From a virus: a stretch of DNA of 64,000 nucleotides. The notes beneath the pieces are model-generated. The model had not been told where the DNA came from. It saw only the letters and a program-made list of their open reading frames with translations, and searched no databases. Of this stretch, positions 14,490 to 62,574 are shown in pieces. The position numbers were made by a program, and so were the translations under genes. The stretch lies in the IMG/VR virus record IMGVR_UViG_3300033142_000925, positions 1 through 64,000 of that record; one strand, 5' to 3'. Within the stretch, counting starts at the first letter, position 1; the number at the start of each line of letters is the position of its first letter.

Positions 14490-15580
14490 GCCAACACCTC
14501 CGTGATAATACTCTCACCCATCTTCTTGGCATTCGTCCGGTCCTTCAAAGGAACATCCGGGGAATCTCCCAACCAATCAGTCAAGAGCTTCACATGAGAT
14601 ACAGTTTTCTTCTGGGCCGTAACCACCGTTCTGTCTCCCGTAACTTTCGTTTCATACCGGGTCACATGCCCCCCATACTTATTAAACAACGCCCGGACGT
14701 ATGACTCATCAACTACACCATACTGTTTTGCCAGCACCGTGATCTTGATGATCGCGCTGTCTGCAATCTCAGCTATAGCCGCCTCGTCAAGCATGGTCTC
14801 ATCCTTGGCAGTGAGATCCAACTCGACATGCTGCCAACGTGTTCCCATATGATCAGGGAACTCGCATTCCGTATAATCATCAGGATCTTCTAACCGAATA
14901 CTCAAATAACCCTTTCTCTCATCCACTTCCCCAAAATTGTTGATCGTCATCGATCCGGGATACACGACTCGGGCCTTAGTATTTTTCCATGTAATCTGTT
15001 TATGAATATGTCCAGCAAATATCAGTCCCGGCATCTTCGCCAGATCGAGTTCCAAAGCATCGCCAGCCTCGAAGAAAATGTCATTCGAGTACTCACTATT
15101 CACTACCTGTCCATGGGTCACACAGAAGTCTACCGACCCCCTCCACATCTGAGCGATGCTTCGAGCCTTGTCTCTCTGGGCCAACGGGATATGAGGATAG
15201 AACAGCACTTTCGCAGTACCGGTAGAATCCACTATGTTAAATGTTCCGGGCTCAGTAATAGCGACGACATGGCTCATTTTCACTTCCTTGATCATGCCAG
15301 TATTCACCCAGTCAGTACCGGAATCATGGTTCCCCGGTATCACATAAATCGGAACCTCCGGGAAAGCCGAAAGGAACTTGAACCACAGCGCGATAATCTG
15401 CGTGGTAGGGTTCAGTTTATTGAATACATCCCCGGCAATCACAAGCACCTGTCCTGTCTGATGTGCCAAAGTCCCTATATAATGCAACTTGTTCCACAGG
15501 TCCAACCGCTGAACTGGTATCCCTTGCGACAGATATGAATCATTCTCTTTCCCCAAATGGAGATCAGCTATTAGTATCAC
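14486..15580 (-). CDS. sbcD: SbcD/Mre11-like metallophosphoesterase nuclease (gp47-like)
   Basis: ADLHLG, AGDVF, GNHD, THG, GHIH, YPGS. Confidence 0.92.
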   Translation of the reverse strand: MILIADLHLGKENDSYLSQGIPVQRLDLWNKLHYIGTLAHQTGQVLVIAGDVFNKLNPTTQIIALWFKFLSAFPEVPIYVIPGNHDSGTDWVNTGMIKEVKMSHVVAITEPGTFNIVDSTGTAKVLFYPHIPLAQRDKARSIAQMWRGSVDFCVTHGQVVNSEYSNDIFFEAGDALELDLAKMPGLIFAGHIHKQITWKNTKARVVYPGSMTINNFGEVDERKGYLSIRLEDPDDYTECEFPDHMGTRWQHVELDLTAKDETMLDEAAIAEIADSAIIKITVLAKQYGVVDESYVRALFNKYGGHVTRYETKVTGDRTVVTAQKKTVSHVKLLTDWLGDSPDVPLKDRTNAKKMGESIITEVLA

Positions 15581-16652
15581 GTTCAGCCTCCCTTAACTCT
15601 ACAATATCGTACACCTCGGCCAAAGCTAACTCATCAGTCTGCAACAACTTGGCCAGACCCGAAGCGGTATAACTCTTTTTCCTCTCCGGCATCCGTAATA
15701 CCGGAGTTTTCGGCTTATCCGATTTCGTCTTTCCGACAGGCTCCACAAATGCCCCGGTATATTCGAGGAAGGCAATCAAGTCCTTCACTCTATCAATCCC
15801 CACTCCATATTCAATCACAAATGATGCTTTACGATGGGGCGGGAATACTTTATTCTTCTTGAGAGTGACATTGACCATCGTGGCCAACTCCTGCGTGTCA
15901 TCCGGGGCATTGTCATAACCCATGAGCGATTTTCCCGTTTTCTTCCCGGACCGGGGCGCTCTAATCTCCATGAGGTAGGTCGCGTAATAATCCAACGCCT
16001 TCCCTCCCGGACGGGTCTCGGGATTTCCAAATACAACCCCGATCTTCATACGAATCTGATTGATAAAAATGAGAAGCGCGTCGTTCTTTTTGACCAACGG
16101 CGACAGCTTCCGGCAAGCCTGACTCATGAGTCTGGGCTGCAATCCTACATGGGACTCCCCCATCTCCCCTTCCACTTCGGCACGGGGAGTCAGGGCAGCC
16201 ACGGAGTCCACGACCACGAGCTTAAAACCCGCCTTGATCGCTTCCTCCGTAGCATTAAGAGCGTCTTCTGCGCATCCCGGCTGAGAGATCGTCAATCGTT
16301 CCATATCAATCCCCAGCGCTTCGGCATAGTACAGGTCCAGCGAGTGTTCCATGTCGATGAATAGTGTCGGGAGATCAACCCCCGTCATATCCTCAATCAA
16401 CTGGGTCTCTCTGATCGCGTGCAACGCCATCGTGGTTTTTCCGCCTGACTCAGGACCGTATATCTCAGCAATCCGTCCCCACGCATACCCGACAAACGGG
16501 TTACCACTCATGGCAAGGTTCAACAGCAGGCTGCCCGAAGACAGCCCATTGATTATTCGATTCTCAAGATCAGGAATCATACTGGCCAACGACGGCTCTT
16601 TGAGGGCCGCGTTGACCTTGTTGCGCAGTGCTTGAAGCTCTTCTTTATTCAT
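15564..16652 (-). CDS. recA: RecA recombinase
   Basis: GRIAEIYGPESGGKTT, VVVDSVAAL, RLMSQA, FINQIRMKIGV, PGGKAL. Confidence 0.95.
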   Translation of the reverse strand: MNKEELQALRNKVNAALKEPSLASMIPDLENRIINGLSSGSLLLNLAMSGNPFVGYAWGRIAEIYGPESGGKTTMALHAIRETQLIEDMTGVDLPTLFIDMEHSLDLYYAEALGIDMERLTISQPGCAEDALNATEEAIKAGFKLVVVDSVAALTPRAEVEGEMGESHVGLQPRLMSQACRKLSPLVKKNDALLIFINQIRMKIGVVFGNPETRPGGKALDYYATYLMEIRAPRSGKKTGKSLMGYDNAPDDTQELATMVNVTLKKNKVFPPHRKASFVIEYGVGIDRVKDLIAFLEYTGAFVEPVGKTKSDKPKTPVLRMPERKKSYTASGLAKLLQTDELALAEVYDIVELREAERDTNS

Positions 16653-16655
16653 GCC

Positions 16656-17774
16656 CTACAGCCTCGACTTTCCCGACTTCTTACTGCCGGTTTTCTTAGA
16701 TGTAGAACCCGTTCCTGAACGTGCCGATGACGATGTTTTTTTGCTGGTGGTACGCTTCCCAGAAGCCGCCCCTGTACCTGCTCCCTTTTTGGAGGTAGAC
16801 GCTGGTTTTCCAGTAGTCCTCTTCGGAGGGTCCTCAGCTTCTTCTTCCTCTTCCCACGGGATATCGTCTTCGAAGTCGTCATCTGCGGGCGTTTCATCGT
16901 CGCCGGGTTCCTCATCGTCTTCAACATCGTCAAGGTAGGAATCGTCGGGCTCATCCTCGGAGTCGTCTTCCAATTCCACCTCTTCATCGTCGTCCACGTC
17001 TTCGGAGTCCTGACCAGTAAGGTACGCTGCAACCTTGGTCACTTCGTCCACATCGATTACACCCAGTTCGTCAAGATCGAGTTCATCAAGTTCCTTCGAT
17101 ATTTCTACCTCGGGCATGTCAGTCTCTTCTTTCTCGGCTCCCCAGACCACAGCAGTGTACTTGGTAGTCTTCCCTTTCCGACGTTCTTTCTTAGTGAAGA
17201 GAACCCGTGTTGCAAGCTGCTTACCATCTTTAATGAACGGTGTATGTTCACCATTGATCATACCAGTGAGTCCTTCCCACTGGGCCTCGCTCAGGCTGAG
17301 CAATCCCACGTCTACATTGGAATCCTCATTGTCCGGGTCCAGTTCGAAGTCGGCTTCCTGATGCTTCTTGCCATTCTTATCTTTGATCAGAACGTACTGA
17401 CCACGGATCGCTTTCAGCACCACAGCGCCCTTGCCACGGATGTCATTCGCCCTGTTTTTGAGCTTGTTACCCGCTGCCTGCTCGTTCTCCTCTTCACGAA
17501 GACGTTTGCCTTCCTGATAGAGTTCGAGGGTGTGTTCACAGATTTCGCAGTCGTCAGTAGCGAACCCGCCACCTTCAACGCCCCCGGCGCACACTACTGA
17601 ACGCCTGCCCTGCGGACCTTCGTACCAGTGTGAGAAAAAGCTGGTGTATTCCAACCCCAACAGATACCACGGAGTCTTCGAATCGGGTATGCTCAGATAG
17701 AGGCTCTGCCCGCCTGATTCCATAGAAGCACTGGTCTGTTGTATGTCTTCGGTTTTCCCAAGACTTTTAGCCAT
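16656..17774 (-). CDS. Single-stranded DNA-binding protein (gp32-like)
   Basis: Position beside recA; H...C...CEIC Zn motif, KTTKY strand, long acidic tract. Confidence 0.65.
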   Translation of the reverse strand: MAKSLGKTEDIQQTSASMESGGQSLYLSIPDSKTPWYLLGLEYTSFFSHWYEGPQGRRSVVCAGGVEGGGFATDDCEICEHTLELYQEGKRLREEENEQAAGNKLKNRANDIRGKGAVVLKAIRGQYVLIKDKNGKKHQEADFELDPDNEDSNVDVGLLSLSEAQWEGLTGMINGEHTPFIKDGKQLATRVLFTKKERRKGKTTKYTAVVWGAEKEETDMPEVEISKELDELDLDELGVIDVDEVTKVAAYLTGQDSEDVDDDEEVELEDDSEDEPDDSYLDDVEDDEEPGDDETPADDDFEDDIPWEEEEEAEDPPKRTTGKPASTSKKGAGTGAASGKRTTSKKTSSSARSGTGSTSKKTGSKKSGKSRL

Positions 17775-17787
17775 AATCGGCCTCCTA

Positions 17788-18300
17788 CTATAATTCGGCG
17801 AGCGACCCGCTACCCTTCAACGAAGAGGCCGACAGGTTCCGAATCTCGGAGTCTGTCAGACGGGCGATCTCGCGCAGTGTCCAAACTTTTGTATTGTAAC
17901 CACTCACCAAAATATTGACCTTTTTGGTGATATCCTTCAGGTCGCGGAGAGCGGCTTTCTTCGCTCTATACTCACTGGCGTTTTCCAGCATGACTTTGGA
18001 TTTCTTAAACCCCTCAGTCTTCTTACCAAACTCCGTGTCCACATCCATATATTTTTCCTGAAACCAGAGTTCAAAGTCTTCTTCCCCTTCTTCGATCTCA
18101 CGTTCCAGAGGAATGAGAAATGTCTTCCAGTACGATATACGCGCCGGGAGTTCGTTCAATCCCTGTTTGATTTCATCCACTGACATATCATCAAGGAACA
18201 TAGAGTCCACCACAGGGGCCGAATACTTCTTACCCTTGTAAGTAAACTCAATATCGATATTCTCAATGCCCTTGATACCTATTAAACTCTTTTTTGCCAC
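17788..18300 (-). CDS. Putative UvsY-like recombination mediator (coiled coil)
   Basis: GTG 18300 after AGGAGG; helical protein upstream of SSB-RecA-SbcCD. Confidence 0.45.
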   Translation of the reverse strand: MAKKSLIGIKGIENIDIEFTYKGKKYSAPVVDSMFLDDMSVDEIKQGLNELPARISYWKTFLIPLEREIEEGEEDFELWFQEKYMDVDTEFGKKTEGFKKSKVMLENASEYRAKKAALRDLKDITKKVNILVSGYNTKVWTLREIARLTDSEIRNLSASSLKGSGSLAEL

Positions 18301-18325
18301 TTCACGGCCTCCTATATAGTAATAA

Positions 18326-19432
18326 TCACTGTTTTCGAGATTTCCTAACAACTGAATTGATATCCAATCGATCAACCCCTTTCCGGTCGTCGAGCCGCTG
18401 CTGATCTTTCTCAGTTCCACGGATCATCTTATCGATACCCTTGCTGCGAGCCATACCGGACAACAACAGGTGAACCTGTAGCTCAGTTATCCGGGAATTG
18501 TAGTAGCTGGTCCGAATCACCGAAGGGGTGTGTCGGGTAGCCTTGCTCACAGATGTGAATATTTCCTCAATGAACTCCGCAGTCCACGACCACCGTTTCC
18601 AACTCATCGGGACCCCGATGGATATCACATACTGCTTTGCTGTTCTGATATCGAGGGACCCGAACACGAGGCTCGACTCTCTGATCGCACGCATCAACCC
18701 TCCATCCTCATCGACCCTCGCTGAAAATACCATCCGACGCAGATCGATATAGCCATTCTTGGCGAACAGCATTCTGCGAAGGTCATTGGCATCCAACGCC
18801 TTGTACCCCGCGGATACATCAATAAAGTCAGAGTACTTTTCCAACTGGGTCAGCACATGGAACCGCTTCAGACTGGTCACTATCCCGGCGTTCACTGCGC
18901 CCCAGTAATCCCCGTCTTCCGACCGGCCGTACCTCTGGACGCAGAAATCGTTGTCAATCAGAAGAGTCGATACCCGTTCTCTCTGGATATACTCTTTGAT
19001 CAACCGGTCCAGTGCTTCCAAAGCGTTCGGCTTGGTCGGCAATCCTTCCCGACTCTCAGGCAACGTGTAGATCAGGAAAATGTCTTTCCCGAGTTCGATC
19101 AGATAGTCCAGCACCGGGAACAGGAATCCAGTTCCAGCACCTCCGCCTCCACCAATAGTGACAAGCACGCTGCGAGCAGGGCCAAAGTTCTTCCGGTTGT
19201 TCAGAAACTCTTCAATATCCTCAATCCTCTCACTGGCAAGTTGTTCACCAAAGTGAGGATCACGACCCGTCCCACCCGTCTCGAATACAAGCCGCTCATA
19301 CCGACCCATACCCATATGGGCAAAGTCGATCCCGGCAAGGTTCATCACCACTGCCGGGATCTCCATACCCTCTTTGAAAGCCTTGGCGAGTCGTCCCCCG
19401 CCTTGGCCCAAACCTATTACGAAGTCAAACAT
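18326..19432 (-). CDS. Tubulin/FtsZ-superfamily GTPase (TubZ/PhuZ-like)
   Basis: GLGQGGGRLA (T1), GGTGRDP (T3), GGGGGAGTG (T4 signature), LPESREG, IDND, LDANDL (T7). Confidence 0.9.
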   Translation of the reverse strand: MFDFVIGLGQGGGRLAKAFKEGMEIPAVVMNLAGIDFAHMGMGRYERLVFETGGTGRDPHFGEQLASERIEDIEEFLNNRKNFGPARSVLVTIGGGGGAGTGFLFPVLDYLIELGKDIFLIYTLPESREGLPTKPNALEALDRLIKEYIQRERVSTLLIDNDFCVQRYGRSEDGDYWGAVNAGIVTSLKRFHVLTQLEKYSDFIDVSAGYKALDANDLRRMLFAKNGYIDLRRMVFSARVDEDGGLMRAIRESSLVFGSLDIRTAKQYVISIGVPMSWKRWSWTAEFIEEIFTSVSKATRHTPSVIRTSYYNSRITELQVHLLLSGMARSKGIDKMIRGTEKDQQRLDDRKGVDRLDINSVVRKSRKQ

Positions 19433-20237
19433 CGAACTTCTCCTTCATCGCAGTCACCCAATTCTCCATGAGTTCCACAAGAGCTTCCACGTCTCCGGCA
19501 GTGTGCTTGATCACTGCTTTCGAGATTTTCAAGGTAGGTACCAGAGCAATTTCTCTGGCAAAGAAGTCGCGAGTCTTTTTCAGCATCCTCGCAAGGTCTT
19601 CCATCCCGCTCACATCCTTACGGAGTTTTTCCCGCATCTTCTTGAGCTTTTCGATGGCCGCCTCTACATCAGAATCCGTTTCATGCCCCTGCTTCTTGAG
19701 TTCTTCCAGTTCGGTAAGAACCTCATCATACGAAATCTGCAAATCATCATTCGAAGAATCGTTCTGGAACTCGTCAACCTGTAACTGCGCCTCTTTCAAC
19801 TTCTCTTCGAGGTCGGCAATCCGCTGGTCCCGTTCGTCCTCGGGCTCCATGTCCATGTCAATATCGAGATCGTCGTCTTCAGGCGGCGCGATCTGAGCGA
19901 GAGCCTTATTCATACTCGTTGCATCGATCTTCAGGATCACATTCCGGTCAGCATAGATTTTCATATACCTCGACGCCTGCTGGCGACCAAAGTTCAGGTG
20001 CTTGTCAACAAACGGAATCCACTGTCCATGAGGTGTCTTTTCCTTATAAGCAGTGAGGGCCGCACCCACATCGATCCACATCTTGACCGATTCCATAGTA
20101 TGAATCGCAGCATTATTATGAAGCTCATTGATCTTAACCGCAGCTTTGACTGCCGCTGCGTTGGCAGGTTTCGTCGTTACCACAGCCTTTGTCTTAGCTG
20201 GGGTTTTCTTCTTCGTCGCTGTCTTTGTACTGGCCAT
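19425..20237 (-). CDS. DUF3102-domain protein with C-terminal coiled coil
   Basis: VGAAL...K...HGQWIPFVDKHLNFGRQQASRYMKIY matches DUF3102; heptad-rich C-terminus; stop overlaps the tubulin start. Confidence 0.7.
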   Translation of the reverse strand: MASTKTATKKKTPAKTKAVVTTKPANAAAVKAAVKINELHNNAAIHTMESVKMWIDVGAALTAYKEKTPHGQWIPFVDKHLNFGRQQASRYMKIYADRNVILKIDATSMNKALAQIAPPEDDDLDIDMDMEPEDERDQRIADLEEKLKEAQLQVDEFQNDSSNDDLQISYDEVLTELEELKKQGHETDSDVEAAIEKLKKMREKLRKDVSGMEDLARMLKKTRDFFAREIALVPTLKISKAVIKHTAGDVEALVELMENWVTAMKEKFDV

Positions 20238-21144
20238 ATATTTCCTCCACTTGGTCAGGTTCTAATTGATTGGGGTCCATCCCCTCTGGTAACTCTACTG
20301 ATACGGTAGGAACATGGCGGTTCAATAATTTGTACTGCCCCACTTTCTTCTCAGTGCCGTACATCCCATCACCCCCGGCATCGTCACCGTCATAGCTTAG
20401 TACCACTTTCTTGGCATACTTTCGTAGAAGCCGGATCTTCTCCGGCGTCATCGCCATTGTACCCATATTCGCCACGGCAGCTATTCCAAACTGCTGAAGG
20501 TAGATAGCATCAAACTCACCTTCTACCACTACAACAGTAAATAATCGTCGGTTCGGTGAATACCTTACAACCTGTCTCAATCCGAATAGCGCCCGATGAG
20601 GTGATCTGCTCTTCCTCGTTTTCGGTGCCATCTCCGGTTTCACCGCTCTTCCTACATATGAAACCAGCCTCCCTTCCGGCGTATAAATTGGAAGCACTAC
20701 ACGGTCGTGATATTTCTTCACACCTGACCGCATATCAAATCGCCGGATCATGCTCTCGTCTATCCCACGCCGGAGAATGTACTGCCATTCCGGGGAGCCC
20801 TCTTCCAGCTTAGGGAATACTTTATGGAATGATTTGATATTGAAATACTTAAATCGGTTGTCGTCAGAATGCAGCTTCTCCCGGATACGCTCTTCCAGTT
20901 CTGAAATGTCATCCTGACCTCGAACCAATCTACGAGCCAGTGACATGGGAATACCCACAGTCTCCACAAGGAACTCCGCAAGACCGGCCTCAGCACCGCA
21001 AGCGAAGCACCTGAAATAACCACTATCGGCCCAGATTCCCCCGGACGGATTGTGATCGTCGTGAAATGGACAGATCACCATGAGGCGCTTATCGCCATCC
21101 TCGTAATCAACACCTTGACCACGTAAGATCGCTTCAACTTCCAA
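20194..21144 (-). CDS. dnaG: DNA primase (CHC2 Zn finger + TOPRIM)
   Basis: CPFHDDHNPS...CFAC, VEGEFDAI, YDGDDAG. Confidence 0.92.
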   Translation of the reverse strand: MEVEAILRGQGVDYEDGDKRLMVICPFHDDHNPSGGIWADSGYFRCFACGAEAGLAEFLVETVGIPMSLARRLVRGQDDISELEERIREKLHSDDNRFKYFNIKSFHKVFPKLEEGSPEWQYILRRGIDESMIRRFDMRSGVKKYHDRVVLPIYTPEGRLVSYVGRAVKPEMAPKTRKSRSPHRALFGLRQVVRYSPNRRLFTVVVVEGEFDAIYLQQFGIAAVANMGTMAMTPEKIRLLRKYAKKVVLSYDGDDAGGDGMYGTEKKVGQYKLLNRHVPTVSVELPEGMDPNQLEPDQVEEIYGQYKDSDEEENPS

Positions 21145-22594
21145 GGCTCTTCTTCCCCGCTCTCGGTTTAGGTTTCGGCTTCCTCGCCTTTCGTTCCATG
21201 TCTATAGAGTGCCCAGTCATACCGGCAAGCGTACTGGTTCTCTTGACCTCTTCATTCAATCGCATGATCGACAGGTTAGGACTCAGCTTGATCGGTTTCT
21301 TCGGCGGCTCAGCATTACGCATCTTGACTACCTGAAACTTCATCCGACCCTCAATCACATCCTTATCCGTACGGATCAATGCTACAATCACCGGGGCGGC
21401 CTCTGATATTGCTCGGGCATACTTCAGGTCCGACGCGTCGTACAGTTCCTTTCCATAGGCTTCATCAATCACCTGTCCAGCGGTCCACCCTACAAGGTCA
21501 TGCTCATTACAGAATGCCTTGAAATCCCAGACCACCTCGCTCTGATCCTTCCAATCGCTCCGGCCTTTCATGATAGGCTCAACGATGTTAATATAATCCA
21601 ACCCGACCACATCAATCCGCTTCCCCGTCTCTTCCTCGAAGCGCAGCTTATCCCGTTCTAAATCAGCTACCGTCCACCGGCGAGGATATCCACACAAGGC
21701 CAACACGTTATCACGTGATGCTTTGTACTGGATGATCGTTTCGTCCCATCTCTTGTAGTCGGCTGGATCAAGATCGGCGGTCCTGAACTTCATCCCGTGT
21801 ATCCGAGTGAGCCGGGAGTCAATCCTGAATGCCAATTCATCTACTGACATCTCACCGGAACCTATCATCACATTGTGGCCGTGTTCGTAAGCAGTCACAC
21901 AGAACTCAATGATGGCGGCTGTCTTCCCTACTCCGGTCACCCCTGCTACCAGTGCAAACTCTTTCGGCATGATACCGCCAGTCATCCGATCAAACGCATA
22001 GATACCGGTACGGATACCAGCCTCCCCATCCTCGGACTCGTCCTTTGCCGCTTCCTTCTCTTCCATCACTTCCTTTCTATGGGCATAATGATCCAGATAC
22101 AGGACAGCGTTCTCAGAGTCTCGAATTACGGCTTCTCTGGATACACTTGATAGGGTACGTTTCGAAGAGTCCAAATCAAACTGACGTATCGATCCAATCA
22201 CAGACCCACACGCAACAAGGACCCGGCGCGACTCCGACAACCGAAGAAGCTGGGTCATCATATGCCGTACCGTCTTAGGACTGATCGGCGCGGTGTTCAC
22301 TTCGTATAACTGTTCCAGAGCTTCAGCAAATAATCCCTGCTCTGACTTGCTCATGATCCCTCGATCTCGTAGCTCATTCAGGACCATGGCTTTTGACAAG
22401 GTTATCCGAAGGTCCTCGGCTACCGTGTACACGTCCTGTAACAGAATGTCAGAAAACCAGTCTTTCTCTACTGTACCCAACACAGCGGGATTTTCCCGGA
22501 GGGCATAAGCAAGCAATTGGTATTCAATCTCGATGTCTCTAAAATCTGAAGCCCTCTCAGTGACTTCCTGCTCAATACTCTTTTTCCCAGCCAA
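21134..22594 (-). CDS. dnaB: DnaB-like replicative helicase
   Basis: GVTGVGKT, SGEMS, LDYI, KMRN; likely TTG start 22594 after AGGAGG. Confidence 0.9.
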   Translation of the reverse strand: MAGKKSIEQEVTERASDFRDIEIEYQLLAYALRENPAVLGTVEKDWFSDILLQDVYTVAEDLRITLSKAMVLNELRDRGIMSKSEQGLFAEALEQLYEVNTAPISPKTVRHMMTQLLRLSESRRVLVACGSVIGSIRQFDLDSSKRTLSSVSREAVIRDSENAVLYLDHYAHRKEVMEEKEAAKDESEDGEAGIRTGIYAFDRMTGGIMPKEFALVAGVTGVGKTAAIIEFCVTAYEHGHNVMIGSGEMSVDELAFRIDSRLTRIHGMKFRTADLDPADYKRWDETIIQYKASRDNVLALCGYPRRWTVADLERDKLRFEEETGKRIDVVGLDYINIVEPIMKGRSDWKDQSEVVWDFKAFCNEHDLVGWTAGQVIDEAYGKELYDASDLKYARAISEAAPVIVALIRTDKDVIEGRMKFQVVKMRNAEPPKKPIKLSPNLSIMRLNEEVKRTSTLAGMTGHSIDMERKARKPKPKPRAGKKSLGS

Positions 22595-23375: not shown

Positions 23376-24147
23376 TCTTTCCCTCCCCAAACTCTGCAAT
23401 CAACGTCTTCTCCTGTTCATCCAGTAGTTTTTTATACGCTGCACTGTTCTCCATGTTCGTAGATACGTTCAGATAAGTATCGTCATCCTCCATAGCATCC
23501 TCGAACTCTGAAAGCATACTCGGATACAAGAACAGCCCAAAGTTAAACTTCATCCTCGGGTACTTCTCCACACGATACCATTTACAGTACGCATCGAAGT
23601 CCACTTGACCCACAACTTCCAGCAGTGTAGCAAACTTGTTCTTCTTCGTCAGGAACACGGGGTTGATTTGTGAAGGTCTGAAATACTTCAGTAGGATGAC
23701 TTCCACCTTCTGCCAATCCTCATCATCCCTGATATCCTCAGCACTCCACTGACCTTTCAAATGTACACCCGAGTGACCATTTGCCAAACTTTTAGGTTTA
23801 GCCGTAGCCGTCCCGTTCTCTCTCTCTTCTCTTATACTATTACTATATACCTTTAAGATAAGAGGAACAGACTCGGCTATAGCTAAACCTAATTTATTTA
23901 GCACCCGCACCTCCTTTCTGTTACCCTTGGCAGTGGCCACCTCAATAAAACCGGTTGCTGCCAGTGCGCGAGTAGTGTGTGTGATCATCTGCTTAGATAA
24001 CCCTGTAGCTTTCCTGATCTCGTCCTGTGTGGGAGCATCCTGACCGTGGTCCTCGAAGTAACTGAATAGCAGCAGTAGTTGATACCGGTCACTGGCGGCT
24101 GCCAGCTTCCATAGATTTGTACGTGTCTTCGCCGATAGCGCCCTCAT
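23356..24147 (-). CDS. Putative replication initiator (N-terminal wHTH)
   Basis: PTQDEIRKATGLSKQMI...LAATGFI HTH; directly upstream of loader and helicase; AT-rich internal linker. Confidence 0.6.
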   Translation of the reverse strand: MRALSAKTRTNLWKLAAASDRYQLLLLFSYFEDHGQDAPTQDEIRKATGLSKQMITHTTRALAATGFIEVATAKGNRKEVRVLNKLGLAIAESVPLILKVYSNSIREERENGTATAKPKSLANGHSGVHLKGQWSAEDIRDDEDWQKVEVILLKYFRPSQINPVFLTKKNKFATLLEVVGQVDFDAYCKWYRVEKYPRMKFNFGLFLYPSMLSEFEDAMEDDDTYLNVSTNMENSAAYKKLLDEQEKTLIAEFGEGKNEKETD

Positions 24148-24534: not shown

Positions 24535-25119
24535 TCACACGAGCGGGAGATTTCTAACAACACTTTTGAAAACACGGCGGTGAATTACGTACAGATAGTC
24601 CACGGGGATCGACAATTCGTCCGCCGATTCTTGGGCAGAGTATCCCTTACGCATGAGTCGAAACCAGTCCAAAGCAGTTCGGTATAGTTTTGGACTGTTA
24701 GCCTTTTTCAAAGCAGTTCGGTATTGTCTTGGACGGTTTGCTTCCGTACTGAGTATTTCTTCGATACGGTCAAGGGTGATGTTCGCTTCCACAAGCTCAT
24801 AACATGGGTCATGGTCCGCGAACTCTTGCGGGTGTGCATACTGATCATAGTGGGCCATCTTCTCGTTGAATGGTAGCTTCCTCAGCCGTCCATCGATCAT
24901 ATGGCCATACTTGGAAAATGCTGCGGAGCGGGCAGTCTCCACCGGGGTCTTGCGCCCGTCGTACTTATTCATCGCCTTGATGATCGCTTCCCATATCTCC
25001 TGTTCAGCATCCTCTCTGTCCATGGAATTAGGGAATCTTCGGGCGACCTTGTACGCGTGGTATCCTACATAATTCTTCAGATACCCATCTGTCATTACTT
25101 CATTTAATACGGCAGTCAT
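24535..25119 (-). CDS. Phage sigma70-family (ECF-like) sigma factor
   Basis: Region 2-like DREDAEQEIWEAIIKAMNKYD; region 4 HTH GYSAQESADELSIP; GAGGAGG RBS. Confidence 0.7.
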   Translation of the reverse strand: MTAVLNEVMTDGYLKNYVGYHAYKVARRFPNSMDREDAEQEIWEAIIKAMNKYDGRKTPVETARSAAFSKYGHMIDGRLRKLPFNEKMAHYDQYAHPQEFADHDPCYELVEANITLDRIEEILSTEANRPRQYRTALKKANSPKLYRTALDWFRLMRKGYSAQESADELSIPVDYLYVIHRRVFKSVVRNLPLV

Positions 25120-61648: not shown

Positions 61649-62446
61649 TTACCTTCCCGCCCCAACAACGTTAGGGATTTTCCGGGATAGGTAGTTGATA
61701 ATTTTAGCTGCTGAATTGCCTTCATATCCTCTATCGTATACGAAGTTAAGCATGTCATTATAGCTACCAATCTTATTATCTCTGACTGCTTTTAAAAGGT
61801 CACCAAACATTCCCCGTAGTTCTTCCGGGGGAACCATATTGTCGACCGTTGATCCCTGAAGACTCTCAGGACTGAGGGCACGACCGCCTGTAAATACAGA
61901 CGCATCTACTCCACCACCCGCCATGAGTGCTTTAGCGAAAGCGGCGAACGGTACCATCTGAACACCACCAAGAGTCCCATCATTGACGGGCCTATGTGTG
62001 ATCGCGGTTTCGTCCCATATAACTTGCTTGATTGCATTCTCGCTCTTTTGGAGAATACCACCACCGATTGAAGCGCCGAGGCGCTTTGCCCCACTCTGGA
62101 TATTCTTCCAAACCTTCTGTGCGATGTCGTTGGCCTGATACAGATAACCTTTTACAAGGGTCCTGTGATCTTTAGTGAACTTCACTTCCAACGGTTCGCC
62201 GATGATGAATCCCGGATCATGTGTCGCTTTATGCTTGTGATCCCACGATAGAACACCGTGCGAGAGGAAGTAGTCGGCGGCTTTCTGTAAGGCCGCCATG
62301 TCTACGGTCTCTCCGTCCTGATCTTTCATCTCGTTAGAGGCTTGGAGATAGACTATCCACTGCCCATTTTCTTCGGCGCCCTTGATAAGGACATCGCTGA
62401 ATGGGCTGTAGAATGGGTTGCTAAGCTGTGCAATTCCCTGTCTCAT
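61649..62446 (-). CDS. Prohead protease
   Basis: ASNEMKDQDGE, WDH, IGEP, GASIGG, AITHRPVN. Confidence 0.85.
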   Translation of the reverse strand: MRQGIAQLSNPFYSPFSDVLIKGAEENGQWIVYLQASNEMKDQDGETVDMAALQKAADYFLSHGVLSWDHKHKATHDPGFIIGEPLEVKFTKDHRTLVKGYLYQANDIAQKVWKNIQSGAKRLGASIGGGILQKSENAIKQVIWDETAITHRPVNDGTLGGVQMVPFAAFAKALMAGGGVDASVFTGGRALSPESLQGSTVDNMVPPEELRGMFGDLLKAVRDNKIGSYNDMLNFVYDRGYEGNSAAKIINYLSRKIPNVVGAGR

Positions 62447-62463: not shown

Positions 62464-62509
62464 AAAAAAACCCATCTCACCTGATATTGCAATATCAGCC
62501 AAGATGGGG
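62464..62509 (-). terminator. Intrinsic terminator immediately upstream of the prohead protease RBS
   Basis: CCCATCT..CTGATATTGCAATATCAG..AGATGGG followed by TTTTTTT. Confidence 0.75.
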
Positions 62510-62574
62510 CTTCAATGAGCCTCTTTTAGTAAAGGTCCAAATGGTCACTCGGGAATCCATTTGCCTTAATTAAA

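What the first reader, a model, noticed from the sequence alone, without database searches (positions are those of the whole stretch)
18326..20237. Tubulin/FtsZ-family GTPase coupled to a DUF3102-coiled-coil protein inside the replication operon
Seen: intact tubulin-superfamily motifs (GLGQGGG, GGGGGAGTG, LDAND T7 loop); the start codon overlaps the stop of a DUF3102 + coiled-coil gene, and the pair sits between primase and the SSB/RecA block. Known: phage tubulins are described mainly as PhuZ of jumbo phages and TubZ of the TubZRC/TubY system of Clostridium phage c-st; no TubR-like or shell gene is recognisable in this window. Inference: the DUF3102 protein is a DNA-binding adaptor and the pair is an undescribed two-gene segregation/positioning system for replicating phage DNA or a plasmid-like prophage.
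Basis: partly seen in the sequence, partly recalled or inferred. Interest (0 to 1): 0.8.

Follow-up and report, generated by a model that had tools for sequence, protein, structure and literature searches.

The report
Phage TubZ-like tubulin with optional adaptor
An uncultured tailed phage of about 80-100 kb carries a tubulin-type filament GTPase as a fixed part of its DNA-replication operon. The DUF3102 coiled-coil gene coupled to it is a plausible but unproven DNA adaptor, and many related phages lack it.

Summary
Window 18326-19432(-) encodes a 368-aa tubulin/FtsZ-superfamily GTPase with intact T1, T4 and T7 motifs. Window 19425-20237(-) encodes a 270-aa DUF3102 + helical-hairpin protein whose last codons hold the tubulin's ribosome-binding site and start codon.

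The window is part of an 80.8-kb myovirus record. The AlphaFold model of the tubulin is closest to plasmid TubZ (Z 34.8), ahead of CetZ, FtsZ and PhuZ. On a tree it sits in its own clade of metagenomic phage proteins.

The order primase - tubulin - UvsY-like - SSB-like - RecA - SbcDC recurs wherever enough flank is held, down to 43-45% tubulin identity. The tubulin is therefore a core replication-module gene.

The DUF3102 pairing is not conserved:
- The gene just upstream belongs to at least four unrelated long helical families in 7 loci, 8 counting the window.
- It is absent, small or of another kind in 10 loci, including the basal branches.
- Nearly identical tubulins have different upstream genes.

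DUF3102 genes follow ParA in both Leptospira plasmids inspected, which fits an adaptor role. No binding, DNA site or centromere could be shown here.

The scan noted the same kind of pair on another genome (e1-5239298).

Verdict: a new TubZ-like phage tubulin subfamily (near certain) with a lineage-specific candidate adaptor (about even odds).

The parts
18326..19432 (-). TubZ-like tubulin/FtsZ-superfamily GTPase, 368 aa (P0001). T1 loop is GLGQGGG, T4 is GGGGGAGTG, T7/H8 is LDAND (D214, D217). A long C-terminal helix H11 (331-353) is followed by a low-confidence tail holding the conserved motif (V/I)(D/E)xLD(I/L).
   Evidence: Pfam PF00091 37.8 bits. AF2 model pLDDT 85. VIA Z 34.8 to B. cereus TubZ 4ei7. 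Invariant G94-G98, G100, G102 and D214 in 17 relatives.
19425..20237 (-). DUF3102 + helical-hairpin protein, 270 aa (P0002). It has a basic Lys-rich N-tail (1-32, net +8), a DUF3102 helical domain (33-105), an acidic linker and helix (106-187, net -20), and a conserved C-terminal helical hairpin (188-270). Candidate DNA-to-filament adaptor.
   Evidence: Pfam PF11300 32.5 bits and phrog_6146. Family alignment A2. AF2 model pLDDT 69. Charge profile.
19425..19445 (-). Translational-coupling junction. The AAGGAG Shine-Dalgarno (19445-19440) and the tubulin ATG (19432-19430) lie inside the last codons of the DUF3102 gene, whose stop is at 19427-19425.
   Evidence: Sequence read. It explains the invariant C-terminal EKF(D/N/G)V of the DUF3102 family.
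20194..21144 (-). DnaG-type primase. It is the upstream anchor of the conserved synteny, and its end overlaps the DUF3102 start by 44 nt, so there is no intergenic space for a tubC-like site.
   Evidence: Pfam Toprim_2 and Zn_ribbon_DnaG, phrog_47. Synteny in L001-L007, L010, L017, L020-L023.
17788..18300 (-). 170-aa conserved gene directly after the tubulin. It is probably a UvsY-like recombination mediator that travels with the SSB-like gene rather than with the tubulin.
   Evidence: Start GTG 18300 behind AGGAGG. Followed by the SSB-like gene in 10 loci; in L020 three small genes separate it from the tubulin. One neighbouring Atlas cluster is 16% UvsY (a lead only).
16656..17774 (-). SSB-like protein, 372 aa, with a Cys/His cluster and a long acidic C-terminal region. 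Part of the downstream recombination block, together with RecA at 15564-16652.
   Evidence: Sequence. No Pfam or PHROG hit. Conserved next to RecA. The SSB call is inference from composition and position.

Best explanation
P0001 is a TubZ-like, polymerisation-activated GTPase. It is a core gene of the replication/recombination module in a clade of uncultured ~80-100 kb myoviruses. It most likely assembles GTP-dependent cytomotive filaments during infection that position or spread the replicating phage DNA.

In the window's own sub-lineage a DUF3102 + coiled-coil protein was recruited directly upstream and is made by coupled translation. It most likely acts as an accessory adaptor or modulator: the basic N-tail and DUF3102 domain on DNA, and the acidic linker and C-terminal helical hairpin towards the filament. 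This is analogous to TubR/TubY but not homologous to either.

Shown: the genes, the motifs, the fold, the synteny, the coupling and the variability of the slot. Inferred: polymerisation, DNA binding, contact between the two proteins, and the cellular role.
For: Tubulin identity:
- Pfam Tubulin above its cut-off.
- AF2 model pLDDT 85.
- Foldseek top hit is TubZ 4ei7, E 1e-21, TM 0.80.
- VIA Z: TubZ 34.8/32.6, CetZ2 29.9, c-st TubZ 29.8, FtsZ about 24-25.
- hhalign E-values: 5.5e-16 to a tubulin that follows an overlapping MarR-like gene on an Alicyclobacillus plasmid, 3.8e-9 to c-st TubZ, 1.3e-7 to E. coli FtsZ, 3.8e-4 to phiKZ PhuZ.

Active-site conservation: the T4 glycines and D214 are invariant, and D217 is D or E, across 37-88% identical relatives.

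Core-gene status:
- 56 clusters at 90% identity and 412 representatives at E<1e-3.
- Primase precedes the tubulin in 14 loci, and the UvsY-like gene and SSB-like gene follow it in 10, down to 43-45% tubulin identity.

Phage identity: terminase, PolA, sheath, baseplate and major head protein.

Adaptor role:
- SD and ATG lie inside the DUF3102 gene.
- Basic N-tail and acidic linker.
- The DUF3102 gene sits right after ParA in 2 of 2 Leptospira plasmids inspected.
- Long helical genes of at least four unrelated families (DUF3102, a sub-threshold ParB_N match, two with no Pfam hit) occupy the position immediately before the tubulin in at least three lineages.
- Centromere-binding proteins are known to be poorly conserved within partition types (PMC7762940).
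Against: - In 10 of 17 surveyed loci there is no such upstream gene, including the basal branches where the primase abuts the tubulin.
- L015, L016 and L019 have nearly identical tubulins but three different upstream genes, so the slot is hypervariable and also takes unrelated cargo such as a MazG-like gene (my reading of the sequence, no family scan), a 404-aa gene beginning with a ParB-like motif, and small ORFs.
- Start/stop overlaps are common throughout this operon, so coupling is weak evidence.
- The tubulin C-terminal motif is kept whether or not an upstream gene is present, so it is not adaptor-specific.
- The DUF3102 N-domain has no recognisable DNA-binding fold match.
- No repeat array or strong palindrome lies in or next to the pair.
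- More distant DUF3102 genes in other viral contigs have no tubulin within 3 kb.
Confidence: 0.5

Rival explanations
1. The tubulin works without a dedicated adaptor, as PhuZ does, and pushes or centres replicating DNA. The DUF3102 coiled-coil gene is independent cargo of a hypervariable insertion slot between primase and tubulin, for example a DNA-binding regulator or nucleoid-type protein with no contact to the filament.
For: Basal and many derived lineages lack any such gene. The slot holds unrelated genes, and nearly identical tubulins have different upstream genes. The C-terminal tail motif is independent of the upstream gene. The DUF3102 domain occurs elsewhere without a tubulin.
Against: At least four unrelated families of long helical proteins each sit immediately before the tubulin in 7 of the 8 sequences that have one, and not next to the primase when other cargo is also present (L002, L004, L017). 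The DUF3102 domain holds the partner position after ParA in partition cassettes. The C-terminal half of P0002 was found only in P0002's own small family, which sits upstream of the tubulin in the two cases with visible context (window, L010); the more distant DUF3102 genes match only its N-terminal part.
Confidence: 0.33
2. This is a type III (TubZRC-like) partition cassette that keeps the phage as a low-copy plasmid prophage, with the DUF3102 protein as centromere-binding protein.
For: TubZ-like fold. The gene order adaptor-then-tubulin matches tubR-tubZ and the Alicyclobacillus plasmid pair. DUF3102 is used in plasmid partition cassettes.
Against: No integrase, ParA-type or ParB_N gene in the 80.8-kb record, which is 84% complete. 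The genes sit inside a lytic-type replisome/recombination operon with its own PolA, DnaB, primase, RecA and SbcCD. There is no tubC-like repeat array and no intergenic space upstream. The adaptor is absent in many relatives.
Confidence: 0.1
3. The tubulin targets the host division machinery, co-assembling with or poisoning FtsZ to block division during infection.
For: Sequence similarity to FtsZ is detectable (PDB FtsZ E 1e-6; hhalign 1.3e-7). Phage inhibitors of FtsZ are known (my own knowledge).
Against: Only about 20% identity to FtsZ. TIGR00065 FtsZ scores 25.5 bits against a cut-off of 295. No FtsZ_C domain. The fold is clearly nearer TubZ. Its placement is in the replication module.
Confidence: 0.05

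Closest known systems
TubZ of type III partition systems (pBtoxis TubZ, pXO1/B. cereus RepX-TubZ, Clostridium phage c-st TubZ) with TubR, tubC and TubY
   Same: Best structural match, over the GTPase domain, the activation domain and the long C-terminal helix H11 (Z 34.8, rmsd 2.7 A, 336 residues, 4ei7). T1, T4 and T7 motifs are present. A flexible C-terminal tail follows H11. A gene for a putative DNA-binding protein lies directly upstream and overlaps the tubulin start, as in tubR-tubZ. The architecture of P0002 (basic N-terminal part with the DUF3102 domain, then helical hairpins) recalls TubY (PMC7762940).
   Different: Only 16-19% identity, and a separate clade on the tree. The upstream protein is 270 aa with DUF3102, not a ~100-aa winged helix. 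It has no detectable similarity to c-st TubR or TubY. There is no tubC repeat array. It is embedded in a phage replisome operon rather than a stand-alone par locus. The upstream gene is dispensable in many relatives.
PhuZ of nucleus-forming jumbo phages (201phi2-1, phiKZ)
   Same: A phage tubulin that acts during infection without a DNA adaptor. This parallels the adaptor-less basal lineages here. A conserved acidic motif in the C-terminal tail might serve subunit contacts as the PhuZ tail does (inference).
   Different: Much weaker similarity: hhalign probability 36%, BFVD PhuZ-type TM about 0.5, and not in the top 50 of VIA. The record is 80.8 kb, not jumbo. The three largest ORFs without a named family have no PHROG match, but chimallin itself was not searched.
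ParA-DUF3102 partition cassettes of Leptospira plasmids and phage-plasmids (e.g. lcp1 of L. interrogans Linhai)
   Same: The same DUF3102 N-domain (27-38% identity over about 50-80 residues) in a protein encoded next to, and overlapping, a partition-type NTPase gene.
   Different: There the NTPase is a Walker-type ParA and comes first. Here it is a tubulin and comes second. The C-terminal halves are unrelated.
Uncharacterised 'FtsZ' of uncultured Caudovirales (BFVD A0A6J5RW92)
   Same: Best viral structural match: TM 0.82, 22% identity.
   Different: 452 aa with extra sequence. Its context was not examined.

Membership tests
Tubulin/FtsZ superfamily | GTPase domain with the T1 loop and the T4 signature GGGTG(S/T)G | tested here: met
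   PF00091 37.8 bits against a cut-off of 33. GLGQGGG and GGGGGAGTG are invariant or nearly so in 17 relatives.
Tubulin/FtsZ superfamily | T7 loop/H8 acidic residues that activate GTP hydrolysis in the next subunit | tested here: met
   LDAND: D214 is invariant and D217 is D or E. They lie at the loop before helix 215-222 of the model, in register with FtsZ NxDxxD in the hhalign match.
TubZ (type III partition GTPase) | TubZ-type fold including the long C-terminal helix H11 | tested here: met
   VIA Z 34.8 (4ei7) and 32.6 (2xka) against 24-25 for FtsZ; model residues 1-350 aligned.
TubZ (type III partition GTPase) | Groups with characterised TubZ on a tree | tested here: inconclusive
   The window's clade (41 rows, SH-aLRT 94) is separate from pXO1/pBtoxis TubZ and from c-st TubZ+PhuZ. 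The base of the tree is unresolved, and only one FtsZ was available as outgroup.
TubZRC system | Small winged-helix TubR encoded upstream | tested here: not met
   The upstream gene is a 270-aa DUF3102 protein. hhalign to c-st TubR gives probability 0.2%.
TubZRC system | tubC centromere of iterated repeats upstream of the operon | tested here: not met
   The primase overlaps the DUF3102 start by 44 nt. No tandem repeats other than one weak 24-nt pair elsewhere. No strong repeat or palindrome in 18000-21500.
TubZRC system | TubY (MerR HTH + coiled coil + Lys cluster) | tested here: not met
   hhalign of A2 against c-st TubY gives probability 0.4%. The control TubY hits MerR_1 and P0002 does not. 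The resemblance is in architecture only.
PhuZ | Sequence and fold grouping with PhuZ; jumbo, nucleus-forming phage | tested here: not met
   hhalign probability 36%. BFVD PhuZ-type TM about 0.5. The record is 80.8 kb, and relatives reach about 96 kb.
FtsZ | FtsZ equivalog score and FtsZ_C domain | tested here: not met
   TIGR00065 25.5 bits against a cut-off of 295.2. Pfam reports only the Tubulin domain.
DUF3102 (PF11300) | Match to the family model above its gathering score | tested here: met
   32.5 bits against 24.4 for P0002, and 37.4 bits for the L010 orthologue.
Centromere-binding protein (functional class) | Sequence-specific DNA binding to a cognate site | not testable with these tools
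   Only indirect evidence: a basic N-tail and the ParB-like position in ParA cassettes. No fold match for the N-domain.

The most novel reading that the evidence does not exclude
A phage tubulin that belongs to the replisome operon has repeatedly and independently recruited unrelated DNA-binding coiled-coil proteins (DUF3102, ParB_N-type and others) into the same upstream, translationally coupled position. This would make a modular tubulin-based DNA-positioning system in mid-size, apparently virulent myoviruses. DUF3102 would then be a general centromere-binding module able to serve both ParA and tubulin motors.
Probability: 0.35. Interest if true: 0.75.

Novelty: new variant of a known kind. 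Interest (0 to 1): 0.6.

Why it matters
Phage tubulins have been studied almost only in nucleus-forming jumbo phages (PhuZ) and in the plasmid prophage c-st (TubZ). Here a distinct TubZ-like clade is a fixed part of the replication/recombination operon of ordinary-sized, apparently virulent myoviruses. This suggests that cytoskeletal positioning of replicating DNA is more widespread among phages than thought.

The variable upstream slot gives a natural experiment: the same filament occurs with no adaptor, with a DUF3102 adaptor, or with a ParB_N-type one. That could show how filament motors acquire cargo adaptors. It could also give the uncharacterised DUF3102 domain a testable function shared between ParA- and tubulin-based systems.

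Tried and rejected
- Complex prediction of the tubulin (A1) with P0002 residues 140-270 (A2) gave no verdict (score 0.00). It is neither support nor evidence against.
- The look-up of sequencing runs: none was listed and no RNA holder was listed.
- tblastn of the tubulin and of P0002 against the GenBank phage collection found no match. DNA search found only a 167-nt weak hit.
- Foldseek of the P0002 model against PDB found nothing at E<=0.001. VIA wide search gave only generic helical hairpins for residues 185-270.
- The PDB profile search with A2 gave only coiled-coil noise.
- hhalign of the DUF3102 family against the L004-type partner family gave probability 0.2%, so common ancestry is not shown.
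- The lead from earlier scan notes, a palindrome inside the DUF3102 coding sequence, was not found here. The best site is a single imperfect 18-nt palindrome at 19541-19558, a count reached by chance in 17 of 100 shuffles.
- No tandem repeat array was found in the 80.8-kb record.
- NCBIfam gave nothing useful for any of the five proteins tried.
Full report
**1. What is there**

All genes of the region run on the minus strand.

- Window 18326-19432 encodes a 368-aa protein, P0001.
- Window 19425-20237 encodes a 270-aa protein, P0002.
- P0001 matches Pfam Tubulin PF00091 above its gathering score (37.8 against 33 bits, E 3e-9). It matches no PHROG family.
- P0002 matches DUF3102 PF11300 (32.5 against 24.4 bits) and four PHROGs of unknown function.
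- The DUF3102 stop (19427-19425) overlaps the tubulin ATG (19432-19430). An AAGGAG Shine-Dalgarno lies at 19445-19440 inside the last DUF3102 codons.
- This dual coding explains why the C-terminus EKF(D/N/G)V is invariant in the DUF3102 family.

**2. Setting**

The window is bases 1-64000 of an 80.8-kb IMG/VR virus record rated 84% complete. Relatives lie on contigs up to about 96 kb.

The record is a contractile-tailed phage. It has a large terminase, family A DNA polymerase, tail sheath, baseplate protein and major head protein.

Around the pair, in transcription order, lie:
- a DnaD-like gene;
- a DnaC-like loader;
- a DnaB helicase;
- a DnaG-type primase;
- the DUF3102 gene;
- the tubulin;
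- a 170-aa gene;
- a 372-aa SSB-like gene;
- RecA;
- SbcD;
- SbcC;
- a helicase.

Two of these need comment:
- The 170-aa gene really starts at GTG 18300 behind AGGAGG. Its nearest Atlas clusters are viral, and one carries UvsY in 16% of members. This is a lead only.
- The 372-aa protein has a Cys/His cluster and a long acidic tail. It is called SSB-like by inference.

No integrase, AAA_31-type ParA or ParB_N gene was found in the 80.8 kb held.

**3. The tubulin**

The AlphaFold2 model built on 17 relatives has mean pLDDT 85. Only residues 352-368 fall below 50.

| Comparison | Result |
|---|---|
| Foldseek, B. cereus TubZ 4ei7 | E 1e-21, TM 0.80 (top hit) |
| VIA, TubZ 4ei7 | Z 34.8, rmsd 2.7 A, 336 residues |
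| VIA, pBtoxis TubZ | Z 32.6 |
| VIA, CetZ2 | Z 29.9 |
| VIA, c-st TubZ | Z 29.8 |
| VIA, FtsZ and eukaryotic or bacterial tubulins | Z about 24-25 |
| hhalign, tubulin behind an overlapping MarR-like gene on an Alicyclobacillus plasmid | E 5.5e-16 |
| hhalign, c-st TubZ | E 3.8e-9 |
| hhalign, E. coli FtsZ | E 1.3e-7 |
| hhalign, phiKZ PhuZ | E 3.8e-4 |

PhuZ is not in the VIA top 50. PhuZ-type models in BFVD reach only TM about 0.5.

On a 73-row tree the window's protein lies in a 41-row clade (SH-aLRT 94). That clade is apart from pXO1/pBtoxis TubZ, from c-st TubZ+PhuZ, and from a third clade of larger tubulins found on high-GC contigs of 109-185 kb. The deepest nodes are unresolved, and only one FtsZ was available as outgroup.

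Across relatives of 37-88% identity, the T4 glycines and D214 are invariant and D217 is D or E. The residues needed for nucleotide binding and for polymerisation-activated hydrolysis are therefore under selection. Polymerisation itself is inferred.

**4. Size and context of the family**

- The word-indexed search found 56 clusters at 90% identity.
- The exhaustive search found 412 representatives at E<1e-3 and 16 at E<1e-30.
- From viral, genome and metagenome collections I fetched 26 loci with a tubulin relative. Upstream context could be judged in 17 of them.
- Wherever enough flank is held, the primase precedes the tubulin (14 loci). The UvsY-like and SSB-like genes follow it in 10 loci, with RecA, SbcD and SbcC beyond in seven. 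This holds down to 43-45% tubulin identity.
- In L020 three small genes separate the tubulin from the UvsY-like gene, which stays next to the SSB-like gene. That gene therefore belongs to the recombination block and not to the tubulin.

**5. The upstream slot**

A gene for a 270-376-aa, largely helical protein lies immediately upstream, usually overlapping the tubulin start, in the following:

| Locus | Upstream gene | Pfam |
|---|---|---|
| Window | 270 aa | DUF3102, 32.5 bits |
| L010 | 274 aa | DUF3102, 37.4 bits; only 28% identical although the tubulins are 78% identical |
| L001 | 304 aa | no family |
| L002 | 376 aa | N-terminal ParB_N match of 24.6 bits, below the 26.3 cut-off |
| L004, L007, L017 | 279-284 aa | no family |

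In L005 a 240-aa relative of the L004 type lies two small genes away from the tubulin.

No similarity between these families could be shown.

In ten other loci there is no such gene:
- The primase directly abuts the tubulin in L020, L021 and L022.
- Only a small ORF intervenes in L003, L006, L013 and L023.
- A different 160-246-aa protein intervenes in L015, L016 and L019.

On a tree of the tubulins from these loci, the branches without such a gene are basal. The long helical genes appear in at least three derived lineages. L015, L016 and L019 have nearly identical tubulins with three different upstream genes.

The slot also holds other cargo, such as a gene I read as MazG-like from its sequence. 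The slot is therefore hypervariable, and the DUF3102-tubulin pair is not a conserved two-gene unit.

The conserved C-terminal tail motif of the tubulin, (V/I)(D/E)xLD(I/L), is present with or without an upstream gene. Its partner is thus either the next subunit, as described for the TubZ tail (PMC5322520) and, from my own knowledge, for PhuZ, or a factor common to all these phages.

**6. What speaks for an adaptor all the same**

- P0002 has a Lys-rich N-tail (net +8, no acidic residue), the DUF3102 helical domain, a strongly acidic stretch (net -20), and a C-terminal helical hairpin that is its best-conserved part.
- Its nearest plasmid relatives are DUF3102 genes on 21 Leptospira plasmids. 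In both that I inspected, the gene follows and overlaps a ParA/AAA ATPase gene, in the place of ParB.
- Centromere-binding proteins are known to be poorly conserved even within one partition type (PMC7762940). Replacement by unrelated families is therefore not unexpected.
- The order adaptor-then-tubulin equals tubR-tubZ. The architecture recalls TubY (HTH, coiled coil, charged tail; PMC7762940), although no homology to c-st TubR or TubY is detectable.

**7. What could not be shown**

- No DNA site. The primase overlaps the DUF3102 start, so there is no upstream intergenic region.
- No tandem array.
- The best palindrome inside the gene is not above chance.
- A 26-bp palindrome occurs three times in the genome against none expected. 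Nothing links it to P0002.
- The complex prediction gave no verdict.
- The N-domain gave no fold match.

**8. Verdict**

The tubulin is a new, uncharacterised TubZ-like subfamily and a core replication-module gene of a clade of uncultured myoviruses (confidence about 0.9). I found no paper describing it.

The DUF3102 protein is a lineage-specific, translationally coupled candidate adaptor or modulator, at roughly even odds against being unrelated cargo of a variable slot.

A plasmid-prophage partition role is unlikely on present evidence, but it cannot be excluded from an incomplete record.

The scan had already noted the same kind of pair on another genome (e1-5239298). My survey agrees with its picture of a swappable partner. 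Its palindrome inside the coding sequence is not present here.

Noticed in passing
window 23758-23783, 62538-62563; L012 14439-14464 (genome 78439-78464): A 26-bp palindrome of the form CAAATG..CAC.CG.GTG..CATTTG occurs three times in the 80.8-kb record, against none expected in shuffles. One copy lies inside the DnaD-like gene and one in the intergenic region before the head genes; the third lies in a stretch without a long minus-strand ORF. It is a candidate operator or docking site of an unknown dimeric DNA-binding protein. It is not found in the 78%-tubulin relative L010.
   Followed up: partly
window 24670-24741 and 23792-23892: Two tandem 33-nt direct repeats (88% alike, 39 nt apart) lie inside ORF 24535-25119, and a 19-nt inverted repeat lies inside the DnaD-like gene. 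Both are just upstream of the helicase-loader genes and may mark a replication origin.
   Followed up: no
window 62471-62508: A 38-bp near-perfect palindrome is followed on the minus strand by a T-run. It looks like an intrinsic terminator between the block upstream and the gene starting at 62446.
   Followed up: no
window 17788-18300 and 16656-17774: The 170-aa gene after the tubulin starts at GTG 18300, not at 18420 as the ORF list suggests. It travels with the SSB-like gene in relatives and may be a UvsY-like mediator. The 372-aa SSB-like protein has a Cys/His cluster, a very acidic stretch and then a basic Ser/Thr/Lys-rich tail, and matches no Pfam or PHROG family.
   Followed up: partly
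L008, L009, L024, L027 (viral and metagenome contigs of 43-185 kb, high GC): A separate, well-supported clade of larger tubulins (about 440 aa, with an N-terminal extension, 25-28% identical to the window's). In L008, L009 and L024 a small 83-106-aa ORF (which I read as winged-helix-like, but which has no Pfam match) and a methyltransferase-like gene lie upstream. This may be a TubR-TubZ-like cassette of large phages.
   Followed up: no
L010 (CAZQXW010000007.1, 67 kb): A contig filed in a MAG labelled 'uncultured Thermoplasmatales archaeon' carries the whole replication module of this phage group (tubulin 78% identical) with bacterial-type DnaB, DnaG and RecA genes. It is probably a phage contig binned by mistake.
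   Followed up: no
L040 (Alicyclobacillus mengziensis plasmid NZ_CP071183.1, 39714-41241): A 112-aa MarR-like winged-helix gene overlaps the start of a 398-aa tubulin gene. Both are annotated as hypothetical, and a ParA gene lies 2.6 kb downstream. It looks like an unannotated tubR-tubZ cassette, and its tubulin is the closest to the window's family among the named records compared by hhalign (E 5.5e-16).
   Followed up: partly
L015, L016, L019 (metagenome contigs): Nearly identical tubulin genes are preceded by three different genes (191, 160 and 246 aa). This shows very recent turnover of the gene in front of the tubulin.
   Followed up: partly
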